Assembly: GCA_000165345.1 (NCBI GenBank)
Contig: CM000436.1
Coordinates: 1,248,001 to 1,312,000 of the forward strand
Direction of reading: 5' to 3'
DNA: 64,000 bases
A program made the position numbers and the translations under genes. Shown here one piece after another: positions 8,293 to 61,900 of the stretch (positions are counted from its first letter, which is position 1; each line of letters begins with the position of its first letter). A model generated the notes under the pieces. The model was not told the origin of the DNA, did no database searches, and was given only the letters and a program-made list of their open reading frames with translations.

Positions 8293-8364
8293 GGCCCTGT
8301 AGTGTAATGGTTATCACCCAGGATTCTGATTCCTGTGATCTGGGTTCGATTCCCAGCAGGGCCT
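8293..8364 (+). tRNA. tRNA-Gln (anticodon CUG)
   Basis: 72-nt cloverleaf. Acceptor GGCCCTG pairs with CAGGGCC. The D arm is AGTGTAATGGTTATCAC. The anticodon stem CAGGA/TCCTG carries loop TTCTGAT, giving anticodon CTG. The T arm is TGGGTTCGATTCCCA and the discriminator is T. A T-run follows at 8367-8370. Confidence 0.85.
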
Positions 8365-8714
8365 CTTTTACTCGTGCTTTTCTCCACTAAGCGCGCTCTT
8401 TTGTTTTATTTATATTTCAATATTACTTTCAAGTTATATTATAAATATAAGTGTGAAAATATTAAATGGAGAAAAATATTTTGAAAAATAAAGAAATACC
8501 ACCAAGTTTTACAACAACTAATGGCAATAGAAATATTCTTTAAAATTTAAAAAAATTTGTTAGTAAGTAACCAAATAGAATTCATTGCAATAAATATTTG
8601 TATGTACCATGTATGCATGGGAAAAAAAAAATGTATATAAATATAATTTATTATAAGGTATTTAATAGGATATATATGAAATAAATAAAGTAGTAATAAT
8701 TGAAATATAGAGTA

Positions 8715-25848: not shown

Positions 25849-25921
25849 GGGCTCGTGGTGCAGTGGTAGCTACGTGTGCTTTGCATGCACAAGGTCCCGG
25901 GTTCAATTCCCGGCGGGTCCA
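25849..25921 (+). tRNA. tRNA-Ala (anticodon UGC)
   Basis: The acceptor GGGCTCG/CGGGTCC carries a G3:U70 pair, the alanine identity element. The anticodon stem TGTGC/GCACA has loop TTTGCAT, giving anticodon TGC. The T arm is CCGGGTTCAATTCCCGG and the discriminator is A. A T6 terminator follows immediately. Confidence 0.85.
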
Positions 25922-26242
25922 CTTTTTTGTGAATCAACGTTTTTCATAAACTGAGATGGCGCTAGAATCAAAATATTTATACCATAGAAATTAATTCAAA
26001 TTAATTTTTGACAATAAGCTTTAGAATTAGCAATTTTGATTCTATCATATGACAATTCACTGAAACGATAATTGTTTTATTTTACAAATTTTCCTATTCT
26101 TCATTCTCCCACAATTTAATTTGTTATATTAGTTTGTATGTAAAGTTATATTTACATGACTTGCAATAAAAGATATTCAGTCTAAAAGAAAGCCATTGTA
26201 TCTTTTTATTTAATCAGATTATATATAGAATTTATTAATGCT

Positions 26243-35745: not shown

Positions 35746-38700
35746 TTAATTACAAAAATTTATATTTTCATTTCTAGTATTTTCTTTTCTTCTACCTCTG
35801 TTTCCAATCTTATTCAATTCAATAACCTTAGATTCTTCTTTACTCCTAACACTCTCTTCAAATTCTAAACACATTCTTCTGATATTTTCATCATTAATTT
35901 TCAATATAAAGTTCGTATCCAACTTGGGTTCGTTTAAGTTCTTAAATGATTGATTTTGGTCAAGATCGTAAAAACCATCTGAAAATTCAGAATCCTTTAG
36001 AATCATCCTAAAAATGTTCCATTCCAAACTTTGAATATCCTGATCCTTAAGATCCACTTTTAAGTAGCAATAAATATGAGACAGAATTCTTTTCAAGTCT
36101 AGTTTTTTAATATGTTTTGGGAATCTTAAATAAAGCAAATAGAGTGACAAAAGACCATATATATTCGAATAAGATACTAGTTCAGAATCGTCTTTACTCT
36201 CTCCCAAATACTCAGTTCCTTGTCTTAGAAGTAAGATGCCAAAAATAAGAAGTTTGTTTGCATTTTTTGAATACCCAGAACTCCAAGCTGTAATTCCAAC
36301 TCTTTCGCAAATCCTCTCCAATAAACCGTAAAGAGAGATTGTAAAGTTCTTAAGATGTTGAGAACTTAAAGTAATATAAGTTGAAAACAAATATATCAAC
36401 ATTTGTTTATCTCCAGAAGATTTTACCAAATCTTTTATGTTAATTAACAAGTCAACTGAAAATATTTCTGAAATTGAGATTTGGTCCTGTGTAAGAACTT
36501 TTCTTGGACTTAAAGAAATGAAATTCTGAGGTTCCACTAAAACATCAAACTCATCCAAAGTACCTGTCATATAAGTTAAATAAAGTAATGAAATTAGAAT
36601 TTCAATCGAAAATTGAGTTTCTTTAGTACTTTCTCTTAAACAAAGTAGAATCCTTGCAACTCCTCTAAGTGAAATGGAGGAAAGTCTGTGGGTAGAAATG
36701 GCTGAACCACATGCAAGTTCCCAAATGCTATGCAAACCTTTGAGAATTTCAGAATTCAACTCTAAAGTTCCTTTTTTTTTCATTTGTCTAATCATAATAA
36801 TATCTACAATTGATGATACGTATACCTCACAAAGTACTGAAACATAGAGAATAACTGATTGATTTGTACTGTTAGATTCATTAGATACATCTTGAGAGAG
36901 CTCATGCAAAGCATTTTCCAGACCTTGGATGAAAAAAAGTAAATTATCATTTTCACCATCACTCAAGTATTCATAAGGTGAAGATCTTTCCTGGATAATA
37001 GTAATTAGTGCAGTAGATCTGGCAAGTAAGATCTGGGGGATTCCCTGGTCTTGTGAGTGTCTCACAAAGAACTTGGTTGATTGCTTTAAGATATCCTCTG
37101 TCCAATAAGTTGAATCTTTAATTTCTGCGTGTGTTAGAATAGACATTGCTGCTTCAAGGATAAATAAAATCCTCATCCATCTACTTTCAACTATCTCTTT
37201 TAGAAGCTGATATGCAGAAAATGACTCATCTGACTCTTTAATTTCCATTTGAGAATCCAGACAATCAATTAAATCCTTCATCTTATACATATTCAACTCA
37301 GCCTTTGATCCTTGTCCATTTTCTTCAACAGGGTTCAAAATCTCCTCAATTATTGTCTGAATTGCTTCTAAGAATTCATTATTATCTAGACAGTCATCCA
37401 ATAGCTTTAAGGAAGCCCAAATTACTGATCTATGTAAAAAGTAAGCCACCCACTCACCTCCCTCAGATGATCTTATTATTGACTCAAGTGGAATTAGTTC
37501 TGATTCTAAAAGTTCTACAGAATCATCAAAAGGAGTGAACTTAAGACAGTTCAAAGCAAGGGTTTTAATTGTTCTTCTGACTTCAGGATCGGTCTTATCT
37601 ATACAATTCATTATCAAAAGTATTTGACGAATCAAAAAAGAATTGTTTGAACTTTTTGAAATGGATAAAATCAAATTTTCAATGCTAAATTTTTCGTCAT
37701 TCTCCAAATCTAATTCTTTCCTGTAGCACTCAACCATTACTCTAATAGAAAGTATATTGCTGGGTTTTAATTCAGAAATTAAAATTGGAAGGTCCGTATT
37801 GTTGGATTTTTCTTCATTTTCTTCTTTAAATAAAGATAGGAAGAAGTCTTGAATACTTTGTTGGTTTTGTCTCAATATTTTAGGAATTAGTAATTCTGTA
37901 ATAGCTTCCAAATTAGCAGCAGTTATATCCAAAGAATTGTCCGTAGAAATTGAATCAATCATTTTGTCCAAAAATGATATAAATGCACTGGAATTGAAAG
38001 TACCTGCTCCAAAGATTCTTCCTATAAACTCAAGAATAAAATGTAAACATGAATTCCTTACAGAAGGTTCTCTATCATTAAGTCCAAAGTGACAAATAAT
38101 TACTATGTGAGACCAAGAAATAGTTCCTGGGATCATCTTTGCAAAATCTTCCAAGTTTCTAAGTAAAATTTTATAAAATGCTTTTCTGACTTTGTTATTT
38201 TCATCCAACATCCTGGAAAGAAGATTATTAACTTCAACATCATTCAAAAATCTTAATTGAAGGCAACTTAAAGACTTCAGCCTCTCAGTTTGGCTTTGAG
38301 AATTCATAATCATTTTCATTAAATAATCCTTGCCATTAGAAATCAACCCCAAAGTTGAAATTGCTATACTCTTAACCATCATTGACTTATCTTTCAAAAC
38401 TATTTGATATAATACCTGACAAATATAGCTCACCTCCAATCCAAACTTTGTCATATCTTCAGTTCCTAACAATTTTATCATTAAATTTATACCCTCAAGT
38501 GCATTCACTCGGACTCCCAAGTCTTTAGCTAATATTCCTTGTAGCAATAAATCCTCTAATATTGTCTTTGAGAAACCACTAAAAGGGTGGCAACTCTCTT
38601 TCTCTATGTTAAATCCAAACTCAAGTAATAAACTAAAAGTAGAGTAAATATTTTGCTCTCTCAAATTGAAGTCTTTGAGAGCAAAAGCCAAAGTATTGAT

Positions 38701-38805
38701 CAAAATTTCCCTCGAGTCATCTCCATTTAAAACCTTTCCCAACTCAGAAATTGCCTCAGATTTGTCAAGAATCCCCTTCTGGAACTCCTTTAGTATTTTT
38801 TCCAT
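35746..38805 (-). CDS. Large HEAT/ARM-repeat protein, possibly a condensin non-SMC (Cnd3/NCAPG-like) subunit. The true ATG is probably at 38805; the track start at 38907 is GTG.
   Basis: About 1020 aa of repeating helical hairpins. GLNDREPSVRNSCLHFILEFIG recalls a condensin Cnd3-type HEAT motif, but the assignment is weak. The stop codon directly abuts the PRP4K stop on the opposite strand. Confidence 0.35.
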   Translation of the reverse strand: MEKILKEFQKGILDKSEAISELGKVLNGDDSREILINTLAFALKDFNLREQNIYSTFSLLLEFGFNIEKESCHPFSGFSKTILEDLLLQGILAKDLGVRVNALEGINLMIKLLGTEDMTKFGLEVSYICQVLYQIVLKDKSMMVKSIAISTLGLISNGKDYLMKMIMNSQSQTERLKSLSCLQLRFLNDVEVNNLLSRMLDENNKVRKAFYKILLRNLEDFAKMIPGTISWSHIVIICHFGLNDREPSVRNSCLHFILEFIGRIFGAGTFNSSAFISFLDKMIDSISTDNSLDITAANLEAITELLIPKILRQNQQSIQDFFLSLFKEENEEKSNNTDLPILISELKPSNILSIRVMVECYRKELDLENDEKFSIENLILSISKSSNNSFLIRQILLIMNCIDKTDPEVRRTIKTLALNCLKFTPFDDSVELLESELIPLESIIRSSEGGEWVAYFLHRSVIWASLKLLDDCLDNNEFLEAIQTIIEEILNPVEENGQGSKAELNMYKMKDLIDCLDSQMEIKESDESFSAYQLLKEIVESRWMRILFILEAAMSILTHAEIKDSTYWTEDILKQSTKFFVRHSQDQGIPQILLARSTALITIIQERSSPYEYLSDGENDNLLFFIQGLENALHELSQDVSNESNSTNQSVILYVSVLCEVYVSSIVDIIMIRQMKKKGTLELNSEILKGLHSIWELACGSAISTHRLSSISLRGVARILLCLRESTKETQFSIEILISLLYLTYMTGTLDEFDVLVEPQNFISLSPRKVLTQDQISISEIFSVDLLINIKDLVKSSGDKQMLIYLFSTYITLSSQHLKNFTISLYGLLERICERVGITAWSSGYSKNANKLLIFGILLLRQGTEYLGESKDDSELVSYSNIYGLLSLYLLYLRFPKHIKKLDLKRILSHIYCYLKVDLKDQDIQSLEWNIFRMILKDSEFSDGFYDLDQNQSFKNLNEPKLDTNFILKINDENIRRMCLEFEESVRSKEESKVIELNKIGNRGRRKENTRNENINFCN

Positions 38806-39181
38806 CTCAATTGGATCAGACTTTCTTGCTTTCTTAGTAATTATTCGCTTCCAAGTGAAGTTTGGGTTCGAGCTAATGCCAATAGATGAACATGCAGTTC
38901 TTCCCACTTAAGTTGATCGACTTACCCAAAAAACTGTCAAATAAATAAATTCTTAATTTTCAATTTTCCCTACTATTTGATACTCAAGACTCATTCTTTA
39001 TATCAATTGATTTCTTTTTTTTTTTTTTATTTGTTTCATTAACATGTTTTATACTAGTACCATTAATACCGGTATAAAGACAATACGCATGCAAACAAAA
39101 ATCATTGTGGTTAAGTTTGGAAAGAAAAAATGAAAAGAAATAAACAAGTTGTAACAGAAAAGTTCTAAAAAAGTATCTTTC

Positions 39182-42100
39182 TTAAAGCATTATTAATTCT
39201 TCAGTTATGCATTTGCACTCTGAAAGCTTGTTTTCGCAGTTAGTGCAAATAGGTAGTTGAGGGGAATTCTCATCCAGAATATGGTTATCAAATAGTTTGG
39301 GAATATTACATTTAGTATGAAAACTGAGATCCATTATCACTTTTGAAAGCATTCTTCTGGTGGAATTGCTAGAAAAATGCTTTTCTCCCAAAGTGTATGG
39401 AGTTGTGAAAATTGAATAAGGTACTTTTGCATTGAAGTAGTATAGATTTGTAGATCTTTCAAATGAATGAAATTCAGTATTTTCAATAAGGATGATGAAA
39501 TCCCTATAGTCGAGCTCTCCAGAATTTATGAATGCTCTCTTTAATTTATTGTTAACCCTCTCACACATTCTTAAATCTGAATCGTGAGATCCCATAGAAT
39601 GCACTCTAACAAATACCTTTGATCCCATAGAAGTGAGTAAAAGTACTTTGAATTCAAAACAGTGTTCAAATCCTCTTTTTCTCTCTTCAATTTGATATAC
39701 CTGAAGAATAAGTCCCAAAATACGTATTGGCCACCCTCCCTTACAGTTAATGATATTCTCTGGGTCATTTTCAAATGTTAAAACTGGCCTTTTTACAAAA
39801 TCAATTACTCTAGTAAGGATAATATCATCATTAACTCTTTTCTTTGCAGTTAAAGAAGTTTTTGGAGATGGAACTAATTTGGAGAATGAACATCCTAGGC
39901 TTCTTATTGTACTATTTTTAATAACTTTCATCCAAGAAAGTCGAATTACAGTCCCTGGTTTAATGCTCGTAATTTCGTCAATATCCATACCTGAAGGAAG
40001 AGTTAATATAGAGCAGTTATTAATTAATTCAAACATATCTATTTTTTGTTGATTTCTTTCCTTAAGATTCATAAACTTCCAGTAATCTAAAACAAGTAGT
40101 TTTGATTCTAAAGATATTTTCCTTCTCTTAGTATTTTCAATAGGAGAATCTTGTGAATCTGATTCTGGCTGTTGTAAACTTTTTTCATACATTTCATAGA
40201 TTTCATTATTTATTGAAATATCCATTTCATTTTGGTCTCTTGTAATAAAAATTCTTTTATTATCATCTTGTAAAGTTTCTATCATCTCTTTATAGCAAAT
40301 TGGAAATATGTGAATAACTATTACCTGGACCAAAAAAGATAAACCTCCTCCTTTATCCATGCTACTATGCCTTTTCTCGTTATCATTTGGTTCCCTTGAA
40401 ATAATGGAGATTTCTGAGCTATTTAAAAGTTTTGAAATCCTAAAAAGAAGTGGTTTTAAATGGAATCCAAGTTTAAATCCAGATAATTTTCTTATCGGTC
40501 TAACCAAATTGATTCCATAAATCATTAATGGAAAATCCTGAGTTGAAGCTTCTATTTCCAATGGATGTCCATGTTCTATATTAGAATTTAACCAGTTACC
40601 ACCACACAAAAAAATATTTCTAGGCATATTCTGAATCAAAGATTTAATTAAAGTAATGTTTGTGAGTATCTTTACTATATACCATCCATCTGTACATAAC
40701 ATGATTCTATTTGTATTGGAATCATTAAATTCATCTAATCCGACTTTGTCAGTATAACTTAATATTCTTAAATTTAAAGGTGCAGATACAGTGAAATCTC
40801 CCTCGCATATTTTTATTAGAGAAGATCTCTTTGCATCAAAAAATTCAATGATTGCTCTTTTGCAAATTCTTCTAAGAATTCTTTGTATTGAAGGATACTT
40901 TATTTGTGCTAAATTTGAAAAAAGTAATTCTCTAGTCTTGTCAATTGAATTAAATCCATTAAATTCTTTAATAAATGCTTTAATAGTAGTTTTAATTTTC
41001 CTTGACCAGTTTAAACATTCTTCATATAGAATTAGCATATACTGAACTTCGAGCCACCTCTGTCTGTACCGAGACATATTACTTGGAAATATTGGGAATT
41101 GAATAAAGAAATTCTCAATCTCGTCACAAATCATCCTAAAATCTACTTCAATATACTTTCCTTTAGAATCATCTGTTTCTTTAGTATCTTTTAAGAGAAA
41201 AGTGTACTTCTTCAAAGTTTCTAACGAATGATCAATCAAAATTAATGTTGGTGGAATTACCTTTCTCGATTTTAAACATGCTAATGAGTATTGAATACTA
41301 TCATATCTTTTGAAAAACTTGGGTATAACTAATTCTTCCCTAGTTAGCTTTCTATTCTTTTTATTTAAAGTATTTTCATAATTATTTCTTTGTAATAAAT
41401 TGGGATACATATTACTTTTTGTTTTTCCCAAAACATTGCATCCGATTCCTAATTTTGCATCATCCTTTAATGATTGTTTTATCGTTTCTTTGACTGAAGT
41501 TATACTAGCATTTTCTATTTCACTTTCAAACCCTCCTACCAGTTTCTTTGCTTTGTTTAGGCTTTCCTCATCTATCGATACCTTTTTTCCACTACCAGTG
41601 GAAAATGAAATGGACATGTTACCTCCAATTGGTGATCCTCCTGAAGGGGACCCTCCTACTAGTTTCTTGGCTCTATTTAAACTTTCCTCATCTATCGATA
41701 CGCTTTTTCCACTGGCTGTGGAAAACGAAATAGGAATGTTACGACCAATTGGTGATCCTCCTGAAGGAGAACCTCCTACTATTTGCTTAGCCCTACTCAA
41801 GCTCTCTTCAGTGATTGATACCTTTTTTCCGCTCCCAGTGGAAAATGAAATGGACATGTTACCTCCAATTGGTGATCCTCCTGTAGGGGACCCTCCTACT
41901 AGTTTCTTGGCTCTATTTAAACTTTCCTCATCTATCGATACACTTTTTCCACTGGCTGTGGAAAACGAAATAGGCATGTTACGACCAATTGGTGATCCTC
42001 CTGAAGGAGAACCTCCTACTATTTGCTTAGCCCTACTCAAGCTCTCCTCATCTATCGATACCTGTTTTCCGCTCCCAGTGGAAAATGAAATGGGAAAGTT

Positions 42101-43510
42101 ACCTCCAATTGGTGATCCTCCTACTATTTGCTTAGCTCTATTCAAGCTCTCTTCAGTGATTGATACCTTTTTTCCACTACCAGTGGAAAATGAAATGGGC
42201 ATGCTACTTCCAATTAGTGATCCTCCTAAAGGTGAACCTCCTACTATTTGCTTAGCCCTACTCAAGCTCTCTTCAGTGATTGATACCTTTTTTCCGCTCC
42301 CAGCGGAAAATGAAATGGGCAAGTTACCTCCAATTGGTGATCCTCCTAAAGGTGAACCTCCTACTATATGCTTACCTCTGTTAAAGTTTTCTTCATCTAT
42401 TGATACTTTTTTCCCACTCCCAGTGGAAAATGAAATGGGTAAATTAGTTCCAGTCTTGGACCTTCCAACTATGTTATTTTTTAACTTTTCAGTTGCAGTA
42501 AACCTGTCCAAATTAATTGAAGCATTTTCAGCAATCCCAAAAGAATGTGAAAAACAAAAGTTGTTTTCTGATTCAAATTGGCTTTCTTTTTCCTGTTGAA
42601 AATGATCGACTAACTCAATATTATCGCTTTTATTTTCTATAATATTTTTTGTACAAAAATTATTAGAAAATGGTAGATTTTTATCCTCAATAAAGTAATT
42701 TTCTTTGTCTAAACAATTACTTGAGTCCATAAAATTATCTTTTTCCTTACATTCATTTTTTGAAACCATCCCATCAATTTTGAATGAAATTAAATTTTGA
42801 ACATCAAATTCATTGAATTGTTTTTCTCCCATTTCTTTATCAAATCCAAAAGTATTATTAAAACTATTTGACTTTATTGATATTCCTCGATCAATAATTA
42901 TATCAGTTTCACTCTCCATAAAATCTTCAAGTTTATTACCATTGAATAGGACTTGATCTTTATTTGTATAATAAATTTCTGATATATTACGAGATTTTTC
43001 TGTCCCTCTAATTTCTCTTTGAAGAAAGTTAGTGTTATCATTCATTGATTTATCAGATTTATCAGAAACTCTTGTTTTTAAATCTGCTTTATTATTACTT
43101 TTGAAACTTGAACTCCCAACAAAACTCATTATATTTTGTAGAAACTCCTCGTTAGTTTGCTCAATCTTATTTAAAATGTTATTAGTATTTTTATTCTTAA
43201 TTTTGCTTTCAAACATCTTAGATGTAGCATGAGCTTCTGTTCCTAAATCAGTTTTCTTATTACCAATTAATAATTCACCTAGAGTTGGTTTTGAAATAGT
43301 ATTGGAAAATAAATTGTGATTTTTTGAAGCAGCTTCACAGTTCTCTAAAACTTTGGAAGAATTCAATAAATCTGACTCAAAGAATTTCTTGATTTCATCA
43401 TCTTCATTAAGAAGAATTTCCTGGTTTACACCATCTGTATTCGAACCAATATTTCCTTGAAACAACTCATCCAATAGGCATTGTCCAAGCTCATCCTCAT
43501 CCTTAGACAT
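39182..43510 (-). CDS. BRCA2: BRCA2 orthologue with eight tandem BRC (RAD51-binding) repeats and a C-terminal helical/OB-fold DNA-binding domain
   Basis: Eight repeats of about 40 aa carry the BRC core FS(T/A)(G/A)SGK(K/S)VSI(D/T)EESL(S/N)(R/K)AK; compare human BRC4 [23 protein letters not shown]. The C-terminal region TDGWYIVKILTNITLIKSLIQN...KLGF...VIVIHIFPICYKE parallels human BRCA2 OB1 [22 protein letters not shown]...KLGF...VDVIIQRAYPIQW. The start is a real ATG. Confidence 0.8.
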   Translation of the reverse strand: MSKDEDELGQCLLDELFQGNIGSNTDGVNQEILLNEDDEIKKFFESDLLNSSKVLENCEAASKNHNLFSNTISKPTLGELLIGNKKTDLGTEAHATSKMFESKIKNKNTNNILNKIEQTNEEFLQNIMSFVGSSSFKSNNKADLKTRVSDKSDKSMNDNTNFLQREIRGTEKSRNISEIYYTNKDQVLFNGNKLEDFMESETDIIIDRGISIKSNSFNNTFGFDKEMGEKQFNEFDVQNLISFKIDGMVSKNECKEKDNFMDSSNCLDKENYFIEDKNLPFSNNFCTKNIIENKSDNIELVDHFQQEKESQFESENNFCFSHSFGIAENASINLDRFTATEKLKNNIVGRSKTGTNLPISFSTGSGKKVSIDEENFNRGKHIVGGSPLGGSPIGGNLPISFSAGSGKKVSITEESLSRAKQIVGGSPLGGSLIGSSMPISFSTGSGKKVSITEESLNRAKQIVGGSPIGGNFPISFSTGSGKQVSIDEESLSRAKQIVGGSPSGGSPIGRNMPISFSTASGKSVSIDEESLNRAKKLVGGSPTGGSPIGGNMSISFSTGSGKKVSITEESLSRAKQIVGGSPSGGSPIGRNIPISFSTASGKSVSIDEESLNRAKKLVGGSPSGGSPIGGNMSISFSTGSGKKVSIDEESLNKAKKLVGGFESEIENASITSVKETIKQSLKDDAKLGIGCNVLGKTKSNMYPNLLQRNNYENTLNKKNRKLTREELVIPKFFKRYDSIQYSLACLKSRKVIPPTLILIDHSLETLKKYTFLLKDTKETDDSKGKYIEVDFRMICDEIENFFIQFPIFPSNMSRYRQRWLEVQYMLILYEECLNWSRKIKTTIKAFIKEFNGFNSIDKTRELLFSNLAQIKYPSIQRILRRICKRAIIEFFDAKRSSLIKICEGDFTVSAPLNLRILSYTDKVGLDEFNDSNTNRIMLCTDGWYIVKILTNITLIKSLIQNMPRNIFLCGGNWLNSNIEHGHPLEIEASTQDFPLMIYGINLVRPIRKLSGFKLGFHLKPLLFRISKLLNSSEISIISREPNDNEKRHSSMDKGGGLSFLVQVIVIHIFPICYKEMIETLQDDNKRIFITRDQNEMDISINNEIYEMYEKSLQQPESDSQDSPIENTKRRKISLESKLLVLDYWKFMNLKERNQQKIDMFELINNCSILTLPSGMDIDEITSIKPGTVIRLSWMKVIKNSTIRSLGCSFSKLVPSPKTSLTAKKRVNDDIILTRVIDFVKRPVLTFENDPENIINCKGGWPIRILGLILQVYQIEERKRGFEHCFEFKVLLLTSMGSKVFVRVHSMGSHDSDLRMCERVNNKLKRAFINSGELDYRDFIILIENTEFHSFERSTNLYYFNAKVPYSIFTTPYTLGEKHFSSNSTRRMLSKVIMDLSFHTKCNIPKLFDNHILDENSPQLPICTNCENKLSECKCITEELIML
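41525..42470. repeat. Tandem array of eight units of about 120 bp (a 240-bp higher-order period) encoding the BRC repeats of BRCA2
   Basis: Plus-strand blocks 41581..41820 and 41821..42060 are near-identical, with only a few substitutions. Units alternate between two subtypes. The antisense ORF 41400..42599 (399 aa) is an artefact of this array. Confidence 0.85.
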
Positions 43511-43825
43511 TACATAAATTCATCTACAAAATATATGACTTTGATTTGAACTAATATATGTGATAATATATTTTTATATTTCGGTTGCATGTGTAAACAT
43601 GTATTACAAAAATTCATTGTCCCTCTTAAAATTAAAACCTAAGTAGAATTAATATAGAAAACAATATTCCCGGTAAAGTAAAAAAGTCAATAAATTAAGT
43701 TCGAAACATTTAAACAAAACAAAATGATTAAATTAATTTAAACTGAACATTCAACTGAAACAAAATCCTATATAAATTAAGTATTATTTTTTAAATTTAT
43801 TAAATTTCATGAAAAATCCAAAAAG

Positions 43826-43897
43826 TGGACTGAACGGGAATCGAACCCGTGATCTTTTCGATGCGAACGAAACGTAGTACCACTATACTATCAGCCC
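43826..43897 (-). tRNA. tRNA-Ala (anticodon CGC)
   Basis: The reverse complement reads GGGCTGA TA GTAT AGTGGTA CTAC G TTTCG TTCGCAT CGAAA AGATC ACGGG TTCGATT CCCGT TCAGTCC A. G3:U70 is present, anticodon CGC sits in loop TTCGCAT, and a T5 terminator follows the 3-prime end. Track ORF 43800..43988 is spurious. Confidence 0.85.
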
Positions 43898-44040: not shown

Positions 44041-44958
44041 CTAAAATACCAAATTAGAGTAGAAAAATTGTATCCGCATAATAAATGCAAAAATACCGAT
44101 AAAAATACCGACTATGCAACCCCATATGCATTGTGGAATAGTGTGATCTTCAACATACCATCTGGCCCATGGTACGGGGGCAGTAATTAATATAATGGAA
44201 AGTTTGAATAAGAAACCAGAAACAAAACCAAGAGCATTAATGTTTTCTAGTAATAGCCATATTAGAATAGAATATGAAGTTACGCAGTGGCTAGAAGGCA
44301 TTCCATAAGATGCACAAGCAGAATTTGGTGGTCTCGGGCTCTTGAAAATATTTTTAAGAAAAAATTCGCTCGAAGCTGAGGATGCAAGCATCATTATTAG
44401 AGCATATGCAGGTACAAAGCTGTCACCAATAAGGAGCCAAACAAATAATACAAGACCAATAATATAAGGTATGAAACTATAAAAAATCGCAAGAGCATTT
44501 TTTCTTGTTAATACTGGATGAATTGAAACTGAAAATAATCCAAAAGGATGAGTATATTGTCCAGATGAAACTTGAGAAGAAGTTAGAGAGTTCCTTCCTA
44601 TATTTGAAGAATAATCAGGATATACAATACCACATTCTAGATCATTCCATAATTCTGTTGAAGAACGCCAATATTTATCTAGTAGCTTCCCAGAACCCGG
44701 TGAAACAAATAAGTCATCGTTTTTAATCCTTGAAGTTTGAACGGAGCTAGACAACCCATTCCCATTATTAGAACCATTTACCCCATTAATAATGCTATTT
44801 GAGCAGCTGTTACTTGCACTGCCACTATTAATATTATTGCTACTAATCAATATACTTTCCGGATAGATTGATTTGCTCTGACGTATATTTCTTAATCCAG
44901 TAAATTGAGGATTATCAGTCAATGATTGCAAACTTGACGAAGCATTGCTTCCAAGCAT
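44041..44958 (-). CDS. PAP2-superfamily lipid phosphatase, likely dolichyl-diphosphatase (DOLPP1/Cwh8-like)
   Basis: The three phosphatase motifs are in order: KNIFKSPRP (KxxxxxxRP), YGMPSSHC (PSGH-like) and ARWYVEDHTIPQ (R-x5-H-x3-Q, the DOLPP1-type third motif ending in Q). They lie across hydrophobic helices. The N-terminal roughly 90 aa are Ser/Asn-rich low complexity. Confidence 0.55.
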   Translation of the reverse strand: MLGSNASSSLQSLTDNPQFTGLRNIRQSKSIYPESILISSNNINSGSASNSCSNSIINGVNGSNNGNGLSSSVQTSRIKNDDLFVSPGSGKLLDKYWRSSTELWNDLECGIVYPDYSSNIGRNSLTSSQVSSGQYTHPFGLFSVSIHPVLTRKNALAIFYSFIPYIIGLVLFVWLLIGDSFVPAYALIMMLASSASSEFFLKNIFKSPRPPNSACASYGMPSSHCVTSYSILIWLLLENINALGFVSGFLFKLSIILITAPVPWARWYVEDHTIPQCIWGCIVGIFIGIFAFIMRIQFFYSNLVF

Positions 44959-58913: not shown

Positions 58914-61900
58914 ATGTTTATTAAAAAGTTCATTTTAATATTTCTTATTTTAATATTTTTAATATGTCAGACCCAGGGAATTAGTAATGATTTAAGTTCA
59001 TTAACATCAAATTTAGTCTCAAAATACATGACGAAGGAAGAGTTTTTGGGCGAATGTAAAAGAGAATTGCCGAAATTTAGATCAAATCTTACAGAAACGC
59101 AAGTTTATTTTTTGTGTTTAAAGGCACTTAAGTCTTCATTAGATAAAATATACAATAGCCCAGTGGGGAAGCTTTTAAATTCAGATTCAGTTCCCGAAGA
59201 TGTTGTTGAACACAAAACAGAGAATGATAATGTTGAGGGATATCGTAAACTACTTGACGATGTTTCAAATATTTTCTCTAGTGATGTTTATTTTGATGAA
59301 GATCTATTGGAAGCAGACAATGGTTTATTTTCAAATTCAATACAAACATTACTAGAGATTGATAAGAAGGAATTAAAGAGAAAGGAATTCATGGAAAAGA
59401 AGATAAAAGAAATTCAAAATACTGAAGAAAGACTTAGAGAAGAGTACAGAGAAAAGTTAAAAAAAAAATATCCTGAAGCTTACCATCCTTTAGCTCTAGA
59501 AATCTTTTCAACAATTTCAAAAGAAGATATTGAAACTTGGATGAATCTTCCTTTGAAGCTGAAGCTACCTGTTATTAATTACTACTTCTTGTTAGTTGCT
59601 ACAATGGGACAATCTTCTGAAAAAGAAGACAGACATAAAATATTTACAAAAGCAATTATATCTACAATAATAAGCAAAAATGAAATAAAGATTCCTAAGT
59701 ATATGACTTTACAAGATATAAGGTACGAGATTTGTAAGTTTGGAATGATTCATAAGTCAGGGTGTAAAATAGTTCCTTTCTCTACTTTGCTTTCTTTGCC
59801 TAGACACTCTTTTGAAATTTGGAAATCCTTTGGTTTAGTTCTTCAATTTGAGTTTTTGATCGCTATGACTTATAGTATAGAACACGAAATGAATTTTGAT
59901 AATTGTGACAAAGAAATATTTAAGATCACAAATGAAAAAAAGCTTAGAAAAGAAGAAGAAAGTAAAATTCGAGTTTATCTCTCGCATTTATTTCCAGAGG
60001 AAGATTCACTTCCATTGAAACATTTTAAAAGTGTCTTAAAATATCTTCTAGATATAGCAGTGAATGATGAACCATCCAAGTTAGACGATCAAAGTCAGTC
60101 ATATTCAGTAGTTAGTTCAAATTTTGCTCAAGAGAAGAATGATCAAACTTCTTCAATTCAAGTAAAACAATCAGAAAGTATTAATTTGGAGCTGGCCAAA
60201 GAAACAAAAATAGAAAATGAAGTTAAAGATAAAATTGAACATCAAGAGAAAAAGGTTACTGGCTTTTTTGATGAAGTAAAGGATGTTTCTACAATAGATA
60301 GTGAAAAAGTTGAGATTGATAAAAATGAATATAGTTCTAGAGAATACCCCACTCTAAATAATGACACTGATAATATTATAGAAGTTGCAAAGTTAGAAGA
60401 AATAAGGAAAATAAAAGATAACGGTATTAAAGAGAGCACTGCAGATAATAAGAATGAGGAAGAGTTTAATTTGATATCCTTAGTAAATTCTGAAACCAAA
60501 GTAAGAAACGCAAAAATTACTATGGAATCAGAAAAAAGTAATGGCTTAAAGAAGATTGATGTAGAAGGGCTTAATAGCCTCCCTCCTAATGAGTATAATC
60601 CATATTCAAATGTCGGCATTGGATCTGGCTTGATGAATAAAGAAGATGATGACTCATTTCCGGAAGAGGAAGAAAATCCTGAATTGGGAGATGAGTCTAA
60701 TGATGATTTAGAAGAAGGACAAGAAAACATTGAGAGTCATGAAGGTGATAACATGGAAAATGAGGATAATGGTGAAAATACCAATGCCGAAGAGTTGGGA
60801 GATGAGGGAAAGAAGGACGACTTGGATACTAGACAAGATGAATTGGATGGAGACTCTGGAAATGGAGAAGATCTTGGCCATAACGGAGAGGGAGAAGATG
60901 AAAATGATGATAAAGATGATACAGATGGTAGTGACCAGGATGGAAACAATGAAGAAGATACTCCAGATGGTGGGGACATAGGAGGTACAGATCAAGAAGA
61001 TTCTGATTCTGGAGGAGAGGCAAAAGGAACAGATTACGACGGAGAAGAAGGTAAGGAATTAGATTCCGATTCTGGAGATGGAGAAGGCGGAGGTGGAGAA
61101 GACAATGATGAAGTAGATGACGAAGAATCTAATTCAGGGGATGGTGATCATGGCGGAGATGATGGAGGAGATAATGATGAAGGAGAAGACGGGGAATCTA
61201 ATTCTGGAGATGGGGAAGAAAGTGGAAGCGGAGAAAACAATGGTGAAAGAGAGGAAGAAGAATCTACTTCAGGAGATGGAGGTTTTGGAGGAGATGTTGG
61301 AGGAGATGGTGGAGGAGATGGTGGAGGAGATGATGGAGGAGATGGTGGAGGAGATAATGATGGAGGAGATGAAGAATCTAGTTCTGGAGATGGGGGAGGA
61401 GGAGAAGATAATGATGAAGGAGAGGACAAAGAATCTAGTTCAGGGGATGGTGATCATGGCGGAGATGATGGAGGTGATAATGATGAAAGAGAAGACGGAG
61501 AATCTAATACTGGAGATAGAGAAGGAGGGGAAGAAGGCGACTCAGATTCCGGAGGATACGGAGGAGATAAGGATGAAGAAGGTGGAGATCTAGATTCTGA
61601 TTCAGGAGATGGTGGAAATGATGGAGGAGATAAAGATGGAGAGGGTGGGGACTTAGATTCTGATTTGGAAGATGGCGGAGATGATATAGGTGGGGGAGGT
61701 GGAGGCGAAGGAGAAGAAGGCGATTTAGATTCTGGAGGAGATGGTGGTGATTATATGGGCGACAGCAATAAAGATTCAGATTTAGGAGATAGGGCCGAAG
61801 TTGGTGGAGGTGGAGACGAAGGAGAAGATGGTGGTTTAGATTCTGGAGGGGGTGGGTTGGACAATTTTGAAGGTAACACAGGAGATTCATACTCTGAAAG

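What the first reader, a model, noticed from the sequence alone, without database searches (positions are those of the whole stretch)
39182..43510. BRCA2 orthologue with eight BRC repeats carried on a near-identical 240-bp higher-order tandem array
The 1442-aa minus-strand ORF has eight BRC motifs (ISFSTGSGKKVSIDEESLSRAKQIV...) and a C-terminal region matching the human BRCA2 OB1/tower segment (TDGWY.VK ... KLGF ... V.VI..R.YP). At the DNA level, units alternate A/B subtypes. The 240-bp blocks 41581..41820 and 41821..42060 are almost identical. This implies very recent duplication or ongoing concerted evolution, such as gene conversion or unequal crossing-over, inside the RAD51-loading module itself. 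Repeat number is therefore likely polymorphic between isolates.
Basis: partly seen in the sequence, partly recalled or inferred. Interest (0 to 1): 0.6.

Follow-up and report, generated by a model that had tools for sequence, protein, structure and literature searches.

The report
Cryptosporidium BRCA2 with reshuffling BRC-repeat array
This is the Cryptosporidium parvum version of the DNA-repair protein BRCA2, whose eight RAD51-binding repeats lie head to tail and have been duplicated, deleted and patched differently in each Cryptosporidium species; the gene and this kind of repeat turnover were already known elsewhere, so it is a tidy but modest finding.

Summary
The 1442-aa minus-strand ORF (39182..43510) is exactly the C. 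parvum Iowa II protein EAK89641.1. It has eight Pfam BRC repeats (E 2e-63) and a BRCA2 OB1 domain above Pfam's cut-off. The repeats form a 120-nt head-to-tail array (one 105-nt unit). The two claimed 240-nt blocks are 230/240 identical.

The array as a whole is not near-identical. It holds at least five old unit types with synonymous differences up to 0.7. Only units 4-5 and 6-7 form a recent dimer duplicate, and unit 6 is a chimera of unit-2 and unit-4 sequence.

Species comparison supports ongoing unequal crossing-over and gene conversion:
- Copy number is 8, 8, 6, 5, 6, 8, 3 and 2 in eight species.
- First and last units are orthologous; internal units are reshuffled or homogenised within each species.
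- The higher-order period is 240 nt in C. parvum and 357 nt in C. hominis.

Two claims fail or remain open. Polymorphism between isolates was not seen: three C. parvum DNA loci have identical arrays, and all C. parvum and C. hominis protein records agree within species. A tower domain was not shown.

C. parvum BRCA2 with 6-8 repeats was noted in 2008. Tandem BRC arrays with turnover are known in Trypanosoma brucei and Drosophila yakuba. New member of a known kind.

The parts
39182..43510 (-). BRCA2 orthologue coding sequence (1442 aa plus stop), single exon. Identical to C. parvum Iowa II EAK89641.1.
   Evidence: ORF list. Exact-sequence look-up. Pfam BRC and OB1.
42440..43510 (-). N-terminal region (aa 1-357). 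Fast-evolving, with no recognised domain.
   Evidence: No Pfam hit. Nucleotide identity to the chipmunk genotype is 75%, against 88% for the C-terminal part.
41531..42439 (-). BRC array of eight head-to-tail units. Each unit is a 28-aa BRC core (P-I-S-F-S-T-G/A-S-G-K...VGG) plus a 12-aa Gly/Ser/Pro linker. Unit 3 has a 7-aa linker. Unit 8 is a core only.
42320..42439 (-). Unit 1 (type F, 'first'). Orthologous to unit 1 of C. hominis (94%), C. tyzzeri and C. meleagridis.
42095..42319 (-). Units 2 and 3 (type T, 'ITEES' signature). Unit 3 lacks 15 nt of linker and corresponds to C. hominis unit 5 and C. tyzzeri unit 4.
41855..42094 (-). Dimer copy 1: unit 4 (type A) plus unit 5 (type B).
   Evidence: 230/240 identical to dimer copy 2. 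Unit 4 is 98-99% identical to C. hominis unit 6 and C. tyzzeri unit 5.
41615..41854 (-). Dimer copy 2: unit 6 (T/A chimera) plus unit 7 (type B). It has no counterpart at this position in C. hominis or C. tyzzeri.
41807..41838 (-). Tract in unit 6 (unit nt 17-48) carrying all six diagnostic bases of unit 2. Downstream, unit nt 87-119 carries all six diagnostic bases of unit 4. This marks a conversion or crossover junction.
   Evidence: Informative-site pattern 4222222444444, permutation p = 0.007.
41531..41614 (-). Unit 8 (type L, 'last'). Conserved 98-99% with the last unit of C. hominis and C. tyzzeri. It sits at the edge of the array and escapes homogenisation.
40286..40879 (-). aa 878-1075. 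This is the only stretch with detectable similarity to the vertebrate BRCA2 DNA-binding domain (end of helical domain, OB1, first strand of OB2). The Pfam OB1 match is aa 897-1017 (40460..40822).
   Evidence: Pfam. hhalign probability 87%, E 4e-6. Domain map of the fish BRCA2.
39185..41500 (-). C-terminal conserved region (aa 671-1442). Conserved across the genus (39-96% identity) but almost unrecognisable outside it. It probably holds the rest of the DNA-binding domain.
   Evidence: Alignments A1 and A2. The profile search of 1.84 billion representatives found only Cryptosporidium proteins plus one OB1 protein.

Best explanation
The ORF is the Cryptosporidium parvum orthologue of BRCA2, the mediator that loads RAD51 onto single-stranded DNA.

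Protein level. Eight 28-aa BRC cores are joined by flexible 12-aa Gly/Ser/Pro linkers. Each core is inferred to bind one RAD51 (or DMC1) monomer by mimicking the RAD51 oligomerisation motif, through the F of FSTG/ASGK and a downstream hydrophobic pair [IL]V. The C-terminal OB-fold region is inferred to bind single-stranded DNA. One molecule could then deliver a short run of RAD51 monomers to nucleate a filament.

DNA level. The repeats lie head to tail with a fixed 120-nt period, so they offer homology for out-of-register recombination. The array evolves by unequal crossing-over (or replication slippage) plus short gene-conversion tracts.
- In the C. parvum lineage this duplicated an A-B dimer (units 4-5 to 6-7) and produced a chimeric unit 6.
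- Other species had their own events. C. hominis has a 3-unit period. C. meleagridis and C. ubiquitum have homogenised monomers. The chipmunk genotype has an identical monomer pair. C. muris has 159-nt units.
- The edge units stay orthologous.
- Purifying selection keeps the cores intact while units are shuffled.

Shown here: family membership through BRC and OB1, array anatomy, the lineage-specific duplication, the chimera, species differences, and selection on the cores.
Inferred: RAD51 and DNA binding, and the exact recombination mechanism.
For: Identity:
- Pfam BRC has 8 stretches, E 2.1e-63. Pfam OB1 scores 27.8 bits against a cut-off of 25.6.
- OB1 matches 10 of 10 Cryptosporidium orthologues, best E 7e-15.
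- hhalign against fish BRCA2 gives probability 87% and E 4e-6 over aa 878-1075.
- The only non-Cryptosporidium hit of the C-terminal profile among 1.84 billion representatives is itself an OB1 protein scoring 105 bits.
- The array consensus aligns to human BRC4 of structure 1N0W: ISFSTGSGKKVSIDEESLNKAKKLV against [24 protein letters not shown].

Selection: core pN/pS is 0.21 and linker pN/pS is 0.85.

Recent dimer:
- The dimers are 230/240 identical.
- pS between units 5 and 7 is 0.05, against 0.59-0.71 between A and B types.
- Two codons are shared only by the duplicate partners among 41 units.

Chimera: permutation p = 0.007.

Turnover:
- Copy numbers are 8/8/6/5/6/8/3/2.
- Unit order is F T T A B T/A B L in C. 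parvum, F T T B T A B L in C. hominis and F/B A B T A L in C. tyzzeri.
- Flanking sequence is 95.5-98% identical among these three.
- Nearest neighbours of internal units are paralogues in C. meleagridis, the chipmunk genotype and C. ubiquitum.
- The higher-order period is 240 nt in C. parvum and 357 nt in C. hominis.

Not an artefact: the array is identical in independent assemblies.

Precedent: T. brucei and D. yakuba BRC arrays.
Against: - No Pfam or hhalign signal was found for most of the helical domain, the rest of OB2, the tower, OB3 or TR2.
- Both AlphaFold2 models were unusable, with pLDDT about 36. The architecture of the DNA-binding domain beyond OB1 is therefore unverified.
- The second RAD51-contact module of human BRC4 (LFDE) reads [IL]VGG here. 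Six of eight units have G where the FxxA motif has A.
- No direct binding data exist.
- No copy-number variation was seen within C. parvum or C. hominis, so 'ongoing' turnover is inferred from between-species differences only.
- An alternative history could produce the same array: an ancestral (T-A-B)x2 array followed by a deletion that fused T and A.
Confidence: 0.85

Rival explanations
1. The dimer near-identity and the copy number are assembly artefacts, from collapse or expansion of a tandem repeat.
For: Tandem arrays are a classic source of misassembly. One related gene model (C. tyzzeri, 1167 aa) is indeed cut short by an assembly gap, though downstream of the array.
Against: - The exact 1442-aa protein occurs under four C. 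parvum accessions. A fifth assembly has the same array.
- The DNA of L006 is identical over 6329 nt. L007 differs by 2 SNPs, both outside the array.
- The two dimers differ at 10 positions and the array is only about 0.9 kb, so reads can place them.
Confidence: 0.03
2. The similarity of units 4-5 to units 6-7 reflects selection for the same amino-acid sequence, not recent common descent.
For: The cores are under purifying selection, with pN/pS 0.21.
Against: - Synonymous sites are also nearly identical. pS is 0.05 for units 5 vs 7, against 0.45 on average and 0.6-0.7 between types.
- The partners share rare codons that are absent from orthologous units in sister species.
Confidence: 0.03
3. 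There was no C. parvum-specific duplication. The ancestor had F T (T A B)(T A B) L. C. parvum lost one unit by a crossover that fused T and A into unit 6. C. hominis lost one A. The codons shared within C. parvum arose by later gene conversion.
For: - C. hominis has T A B as units 5-7, and its best higher-order period is 357 nt.
- Unit 6 is exactly the T/A hybrid that such a deletion would make.
Against: - This history needs extra conversion events to explain CGT in units 4 and 6 and AGY in units 5 and 7.
- Units 3 and 4 of C. parvum match C. hominis 5-6 and C. tyzzeri 4-5, after which neither sister species has a second dimer.
- This is a variant of the same mechanism, not a different kind of explanation.
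Confidence: 0.12
4. The protein is not a true BRCA2. It is a lineage-specific protein that merely carries BRC-like repeats, and the array folds as a beta-propeller-like repeat domain.
For: - phmmer gives weak hits (E 3e-4 to 1e-2) to designed 6-bladed 'Pizza' propellers with 42-aa blades.
- Most of the C-terminal 770 aa has no detectable similarity outside the genus.
Against: - The Pizza hits score 21 bits, against 209 bits for Pfam BRC. They show low alignment accuracy and arise from the matching periodicity of two repeat proteins.
- OB1 passes Pfam's curated cut-off in all ten orthologues.
- The reciprocal hit is an OB1 protein.
Confidence: 0.02

Closest known systems
Trypanosoma brucei BRCA2 (Hartley & McCulloch 2008, PMC2408642; Trenaman et al. 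2013, PMC3553974)
   Same: - BRC repeats form a strict head-to-tail array whose unit is longer than the BRC motif (44 aa there, 40 aa here).
- The last unit diverges from the others.
- Copy number differs from close relatives.
- The differences are explained by array expansion and contraction.
- Both are parasitic protists.
   Different: - In T. brucei, 14 of 15 units are virtually identical at nucleotide level (under 1 change per unit), and copy number varies between strains and alleles.
- Here the units are of at least five old types (60-98% identical). Only one dimer pair is recent, and no within-species variation was seen.
- That paper states that, apart from T. congolense, multi-BRC proteins have unevenly spaced, degenerate repeats. 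The C. parvum array is a further exception. The paper counted its repeats but did not describe the array.
Drosophila yakuba dmbrca2 BRC array (Bennett, Mercer & Noor 2010, PMC2882388)
   Same: BRC array expansion and contraction by unequal crossing-over, with convergent copy numbers in related species. C. parvum and C. hominis likewise both have 8 units, reached by different routes.
   Different: [quoted passage not shown] None were found here. I read only the abstract of that paper.
Human/vertebrate BRCA2 (structures 1N0W for BRC4-RAD51, 1MIU/1MJE for the DNA-binding domain)
   Same: - Eight BRC repeats.
- FxTxSGK hairpin motif.
- OB1 with the TDGWY and KLGFH motifs.
- First OB2 strand (V.V....[YF]P).
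   Different: - Vertebrate repeats are dispersed over about 1000 aa, anciently diverged and individually orthologous across species.
- The vertebrate helical domain, tower, OB3 and TR2 are all recognisable by Pfam but are not recognisable here.
- The LFDE module is replaced by [IL]VGG.
Higher-order tandem repeats in coding minisatellites generally
   Same: Identity at a lag of two units exceeds identity at a lag of one. Edge units escape homogenisation. Chimeric units mark crossover or conversion junctions.
   Different: There are only two copies of the higher-order unit, and the period is species-specific (240 against 357 nt).

Membership tests
BRCA2 (eukaryotic RAD51 mediator) | One or more BRC repeats matching PF00634 | tested here: met
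   8 stretches, E 2.1e-63, 209.5 bits against a cut-off of 20.3. The consensus aligns to human BRC4 of 1N0W.
BRCA2 (eukaryotic RAD51 mediator) | OB1 of the DSS1/DNA-binding domain (PF09103) | tested here: met
   27.8-28.9 bits against a cut-off of 25.6. Matches 10 of 10 orthologues, best E 7e-15. hhalign probability 87%, E 4e-6. The reciprocal hit P0022 is an OB1 protein.
BRCA2 (eukaryotic RAD51 mediator) | Helical domain (PF09169) upstream of OB1 | tested here: inconclusive
   No Pfam hit. hhalign aligns only the last ~20 residues of the helical domain. The first AF2 model shows helices at aa ~790-890 of the protein with pLDDT 55-80, but the model as a whole is poor.
BRCA2 (eukaryotic RAD51 mediator) | OB2 with tower insertion, and OB3 (PF21318, PF09121, PF09104) | tested here: inconclusive
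   Only the first OB2 strand aligns. Pieces covering aa 1050-1442 give hhalign probability below 1%. AF2 models have pLDDT about 36, so no fold search was run.
BRCA2 (eukaryotic RAD51 mediator) | C-terminal TR2 RAD51-filament-binding motif (PF22687) | tested here: not met
   No Pfam hit at E <= 1. This feature is vertebrate-type and is not required of protist BRCA2.
BRCA2 (eukaryotic RAD51 mediator) | Physical binding of RAD51/DMC1, DSS1 and single-stranded DNA | not testable with these tools
   Needs biochemistry or a confident complex model.
Homogenised tandem BRC array (T. brucei type) | Head-to-tail units of constant length, including the linker | tested here: met
   Spacing is 120,120,105,120,120,120,120 nt.
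Homogenised tandem BRC array (T. brucei type) | Units virtually identical at nucleotide level | tested here: not met
   Pairwise identity is 60-98%. Only units 5 vs 7 (98%) and 2 vs 6 (95% over 105 nt) are close. pS between types is up to 0.71.
Homogenised tandem BRC array (T. brucei type) | Copy number differs between close relatives | tested here: met
   Between 2 and 8 units across eight Cryptosporidium species. Unit order differs even between C. parvum, C. hominis and C. tyzzeri.
Homogenised tandem BRC array (T. brucei type) | Copy number polymorphic between strains | tested here: inconclusive
   No variation among 3 C. parvum DNA loci, 5 C. parvum accessions and the C. hominis records. 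The sample is small and possibly dominated by related laboratory lines.
Higher-order repeat | Similarity at a multi-unit lag exceeds similarity at a one-unit lag | tested here: met
   TRF gives 86% at period 240 against 76% at period 120. The dimers are 95.8% identical, against 76-82% for the adjacent units inside them. Only two full copies exist.

The most novel reading that the evidence does not exclude
The BRC array could be a fast-evolving, possibly adaptive dial of recombination capacity in Cryptosporidium. Intestinal species carry 5-8 units, while the gastric C. muris and C. andersoni and the bovine C. ryanae carry 2-3. Each species rebuilds its array by the same homologous recombination that the protein promotes. 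If the array also varies among C. parvum or C. hominis subtype families, it would be both a 120-nt-step typing marker and a natural allelic series. Such a series would let one test how BRC number sets RAD51 loading, meiotic crossing-over and gene-editing efficiency in a parasite that appears, from my own knowledge, to rely on homologous recombination for double-strand-break repair.
Probability: 0.15. Interest if true: 0.5.

Novelty: new member of a known kind. Interest (0 to 1): 0.3.

Why it matters
BRCA2 is the central RAD51 loader. Why some organisms need many BRC repeats is still open. In T. brucei, repeat number affects repair efficiency and RAD51 focus dynamics.

Cryptosporidium offers a second protist genus with a regular, evolving BRC array. 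It also provides a graded natural series (2, 3, 5, 6, 8 units) across species that can now be manipulated genetically.

Practically, the C. parvum record is still named 'hypothetical protein / possible BCRT domain', and orthologues are mislabelled 'BRCT repeat containing'. The correct name is BRCA2. Two orthologue gene models are wrong: the C. ubiquitum model is a fusion and the C. tyzzeri model is truncated.

None of this overturns current understanding.

Tried and rejected
- AlphaFold2 on aa 671-1442 with 10 orthologues gave pLDDT 35.8. On aa 860-1100 with 12 sequences, including two fish BRCA2, it gave pLDDT 36.0. Both are unusable, so no fold search was run.
- Sequence and profile searches of the PDB found only BRC peptides for the array. 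1MJE scored E 0.68 for the DNA-binding domain.
- Word-indexed homologue searches with the C-terminal region, first as a single sequence and then as a profile, reached only Cryptosporidium.
- The exhaustive HMMER search added a single OB1 protein.
- The 'Pizza6' designed-propeller hits were rejected as a periodicity artefact. The DUF6429 hit (20.4 bits against a cut-off of 31.6) is sub-threshold.
- The 399-aa plus-strand ORF 41400..42599 was rejected as a gene. It is the stop-free antisense frame of the periodic array.
- A metagenome scan for the unit core found nothing.
- Literature searches for concerted evolution of BRC repeats and for the record's annotation phrase found nothing.
- I could not determine the cgd8 locus tag or the sequencing platforms of the assemblies with these tools.

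Full report
**1. What is at the coordinates**

The window is about 30% G+C with long intron-free ORFs.

An exact-sequence look-up shows that the protein is Cryptosporidium parvum Iowa II EAK89641.1. The same sequence is filed under three further C. parvum accessions. Its names there are 'hypothetical protein' and 'Large protein with central conserved domain, possible BCRT domain'.

Neighbouring genes:
- upstream of the BRCA2 start (higher window coordinates), a PAP2 phosphatase-like gene (44041..44958);
- downstream, a 1053-aa protein with a weak HEAT-repeat hit (35746..38907).

The same neighbours flank the orthologues in other species.

**2. The repeats**

Pfam finds eight BRC repeats (PF00634, E 2.1e-63). 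They start at aa 358, 398, 438, 473, 513, 553, 593 and 633.

Each unit is a 28-aa core (PISFSTGSGKKVSIDEESLSRAKQIVGG and variants) followed by a 12-aa Gly/Ser/Pro linker. Unit 3 has a 7-aa linker. Unit 8 runs into unique sequence after its core.

Tandem Repeats Finder places the array at 41530..42438. Period 120 gives 76% matches and period 240 gives 86%. It is by far the largest tandem repeat in the 64-kb window.

In unit register, unit 4 vs 6 is 112/120 and unit 5 vs 7 is 118/120.

The array as a whole is not near-identical. Pairwise unit identity ranges from 60 to 98%.

**3. Unit types and the history of the dimer**

I aligned all units of C. parvum, C. hominis, C. tyzzeri and C. meleagridis. 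Five types appear:
- F, the first unit;
- T, with the 'ITEES' signature;
- A, 'IDEESLSRAKQIV';
- B, 'SIDEESLNRAKKLV';
- L, the last unit.

Unit order by species:

| Species | Order |
|---|---|
| C. parvum | F T T A B (T/A) B L |
| C. hominis | F T T B T A B L |
| C. tyzzeri | (F/B) A B T A L |
| C. meleagridis | F B' B' B' L |

The types are old. The proportion of synonymous differences (pS) between A and B cores is 0.59-0.71.

By contrast, units 5 and 7 differ at pS 0.05. Codon 38 is CGT (Arg) only in C. parvum units 4 and 6. Codon 11 is AGT/AGC (Ser) only in units 5 and 7. Neither occurs in the other 37 units examined in six species.

The orthologous A and B units of C. hominis (units 6 and 7) and C. 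tyzzeri (units 5 and 3) lack these states. Downstream of the T-A pair that matches C. parvum units 3-4, neither sister species has a second dimer. The dimer similarity therefore arose in the C. parvum lineage, by duplication or by conversion.

Unit 6 is a chimera. Six consecutive diagnostic bases (unit nt 31-48) match unit 2, and the next six (nt 87-116) match unit 4. A permutation test of this clustering gives p = 0.007. This junction accounts for six of the ten differences between the two dimers.

**4. Turnover across the genus**

BRC copy number by species:

| Species | Units |
|---|---|
| C. parvum | 8 |
| C. hominis | 8 |
| C. tyzzeri | 6 |
| C. meleagridis | 5 |
| chipmunk genotype I | 6 |
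| C. ubiquitum | 8 |
| C. muris | 3 |
| C. andersoni | 2 |

C. ryanae has about two degenerate repeats by eye.

First and last units are orthologous across C. parvum, C. hominis and C. tyzzeri. The first units are 90-94% identical and the last units 98-99%. Internal units are reshuffled.

In C. meleagridis, the chipmunk genotype and C. ubiquitum, the nearest relative of every internal unit is a paralogue in the same species. This includes a 100% identical adjacent pair in the chipmunk genotype.

C. hominis shows its own paralogue-shared derived states:
- GAT at codon 38 of units 6 and 7;
- 'GNGK' in units 2, 4 and 6.

Its best higher-order period is 357 nt, not 240. C. muris has 159-nt units at 95% identity.

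C. parvum and C. hominis thus both have eight units but reached that number by different events. The unique flanks of the gene are 95.5-97.3% identical between C. parvum and C. hominis, and 97.1-98.1% between C. parvum and C. tyzzeri. Several array rearrangements have therefore occurred per few per cent of sequence divergence.

This is the pattern expected of unequal crossing-over (or slippage) plus gene conversion, with array edges escaping homogenisation.

**5. Is repeat number polymorphic? Is it an artefact?**

Two other C. parvum assemblies were compared with the window over 6329 nt:
- GCA_031892065.1 is identical;
- GCA_048859185.1 differs by two SNPs, both outside the array.

All five C. 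parvum accessions and all C. hominis records (three full-length 1446-aa sequences and one truncated model) have identical arrays within species.

This argues strongly against an assembly artefact. It gives no support to polymorphism between isolates.

Rearrangements occur at a rate of a few per 2-4% divergence. Isolates that differ by hundredths of a per cent would rarely differ in the array. 'Likely polymorphic' is therefore overstated, though not excluded for deeper lineages.

A metagenome scan for the unit core found nothing.

**6. Selection and likely function of the units**

Averaged over unit pairs, the cores have pN/pS = 0.21 and the linkers 0.85. The cores are constrained and the linkers are spacers.

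The array consensus aligns to human BRC4 in the RAD51 complex 1N0W:
- [25 protein letters not shown]
- [24 protein letters not shown]

The Phe of the FxxA module and the T-x-S-G-K hairpin are present in all eight units. The Ala position is Gly in six units and Ala in units 5 and 7. The LFDE module is [IL]VGG.

By analogy with established BRC-RAD51 structural biology, each unit probably binds one RAD51 or DMC1 monomer. This is inference and was not tested here.

**7. The C-terminal region**

Pfam OB1 (PF09103) matches aa 897-1017 at 27.8 bits against a cut-off of 25.6. It matches all ten Cryptosporidium orthologues, best E 7e-15.

A profile-profile comparison with the C-terminal 973 aa of a fish BRCA2 gives probability 87% and E 4e-6. 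In local mode only aa 878-1075 align. By the fish protein's Pfam map, that stretch is the end of the helical domain, OB1 and the first strand of OB2 just before the tower.

The remaining pieces (aa 671-895 and aa 1050-1442) give no signal.

A profile of the C-terminal region was searched against 1.84 billion representative proteins. It found only Cryptosporidium proteins and one other protein, at E 3.5e-4. That protein is itself a clear OB1 protein, scoring 105 bits.

Both AlphaFold2 attempts failed, with pLDDT about 36. I therefore cannot say whether OB2, a tower or OB3 are present.

**8. Comparison with what is known**

Hartley & McCulloch (2008, PMC2408642) listed C. parvum among apicomplexan BRCA2 proteins with six to eight BRC repeats. 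They described the T. brucei array: 15 units of 44 aa, 14 of them identical, a degenerate last unit, and strain and allele variation in number. They attributed this to array expansion and contraction.

They stated that elsewhere, apart from T. congolense, BRC repeats are unevenly spaced and degenerate. The Cryptosporidium arrays are an overlooked exception.

Bennett et al. (2010, PMC2882388) modelled unequal crossing-over and homoplasious copy numbers in the D. yakuba BRC array.

I found no paper describing the Cryptosporidium array's organisation or evolution. The library does not cover all journals.

**9. Verdict**

This is a correctly recognised BRCA2 orthologue. It carries a real, lineage-specific 240-nt dimer duplication inside a tandem BRC array that evolves by recombination among its own units.

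The gene is known, and the phenomenon is known in two other lineages. The genus-wide picture is new detail: different higher-order periods, convergent copy number and chimeric units. I rate it a new member of a known kind, with interest about 0.3.

Noticed in passing
window 43825..43897 (-); also 8293..8365 (+) and 25849..25922 (+): tRNA-Ala(CGC) lies in the 530-nt spacer between the BRCA2 start codon and the upstream PAP2 gene. tRNA-Gln(CTG) and tRNA-Ala(TGC) lie elsewhere in the window.
   Followed up: no
window 41400..42599 (+): A 399-aa ORF runs antisense through the BRC array. It translates to a periodic 'PPIGDPP...SSSIDTFFPLPVENEM' sequence and is most simply a stop-free frame created by the repeat, not a gene.
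   Followed up: partly
window 39185..39253 (-), aa 1420-1442: The extreme C-terminus carries a Cys cluster, PICTNCENKLSECKCITEELIML (C-x2-C-x7-C-x-C). It is conserved in the intestinal species and, as CATCGVVLTNCTC, in C. muris and C. andersoni. It is not a feature of vertebrate BRCA2. It could be a small metal-binding knuckle.
   Followed up: no
BRC array linkers, codons 29-40 of units 1, 2 and 4-7 (window 41615..42439): Synonymous differences are much lower in the linkers (pS 0.13) than in the cores (pS 0.45), although the linkers are less constrained at protein level (pN/pS 0.85 against 0.21). Possible causes are more frequent conversion or crossover in the linkers, or the narrow codon choice of a Gly/Ser/Pro tract. 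This is unexplained.
   Followed up: no
L005 (C. ubiquitum, GCA_001865345.1) and L003:5501 (C. tyzzeri, GCA_007210665.1): Two orthologue gene models are wrong. The C. ubiquitum 1726-aa model fuses the upstream PAP2 gene to BRCA2. The C. tyzzeri 1167-aa model ends at an 'N' with about 40 nt missing, and the rest of the gene continues in another frame. Several records call the protein 'BRCT repeat containing' or 'BCRT domain', which confuses BRC with BRCT.
   Followed up: yes
L008:1363..1789 (C. muris): The gastric species have a separate style of array. C. muris has 2.7 copies of a 159-nt unit at 95% identity, with an Asn/Asp-rich linker. Its sister C. andersoni has only two BRC motifs.
   Followed up: partly
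window 61093..61685 (+ strand composition): There is a cluster of Gly/Asp/Glu-rich tandem repeats with periods 12, 63, 69 and 171. It lies in a region of unusually high G+C (0.40) and GC skew (+0.54) for this window. It is probably an acidic low-complexity coding region.
   Followed up: no
window 39182..43510 protein, aa 394-621: phmmer gives weak hits (E 3e-4 to 1e-2) to computationally designed 'Pizza' six-bladed beta-propellers with 42-aa blades. I judged this a periodicity coincidence between two repeat proteins.
   Followed up: partly
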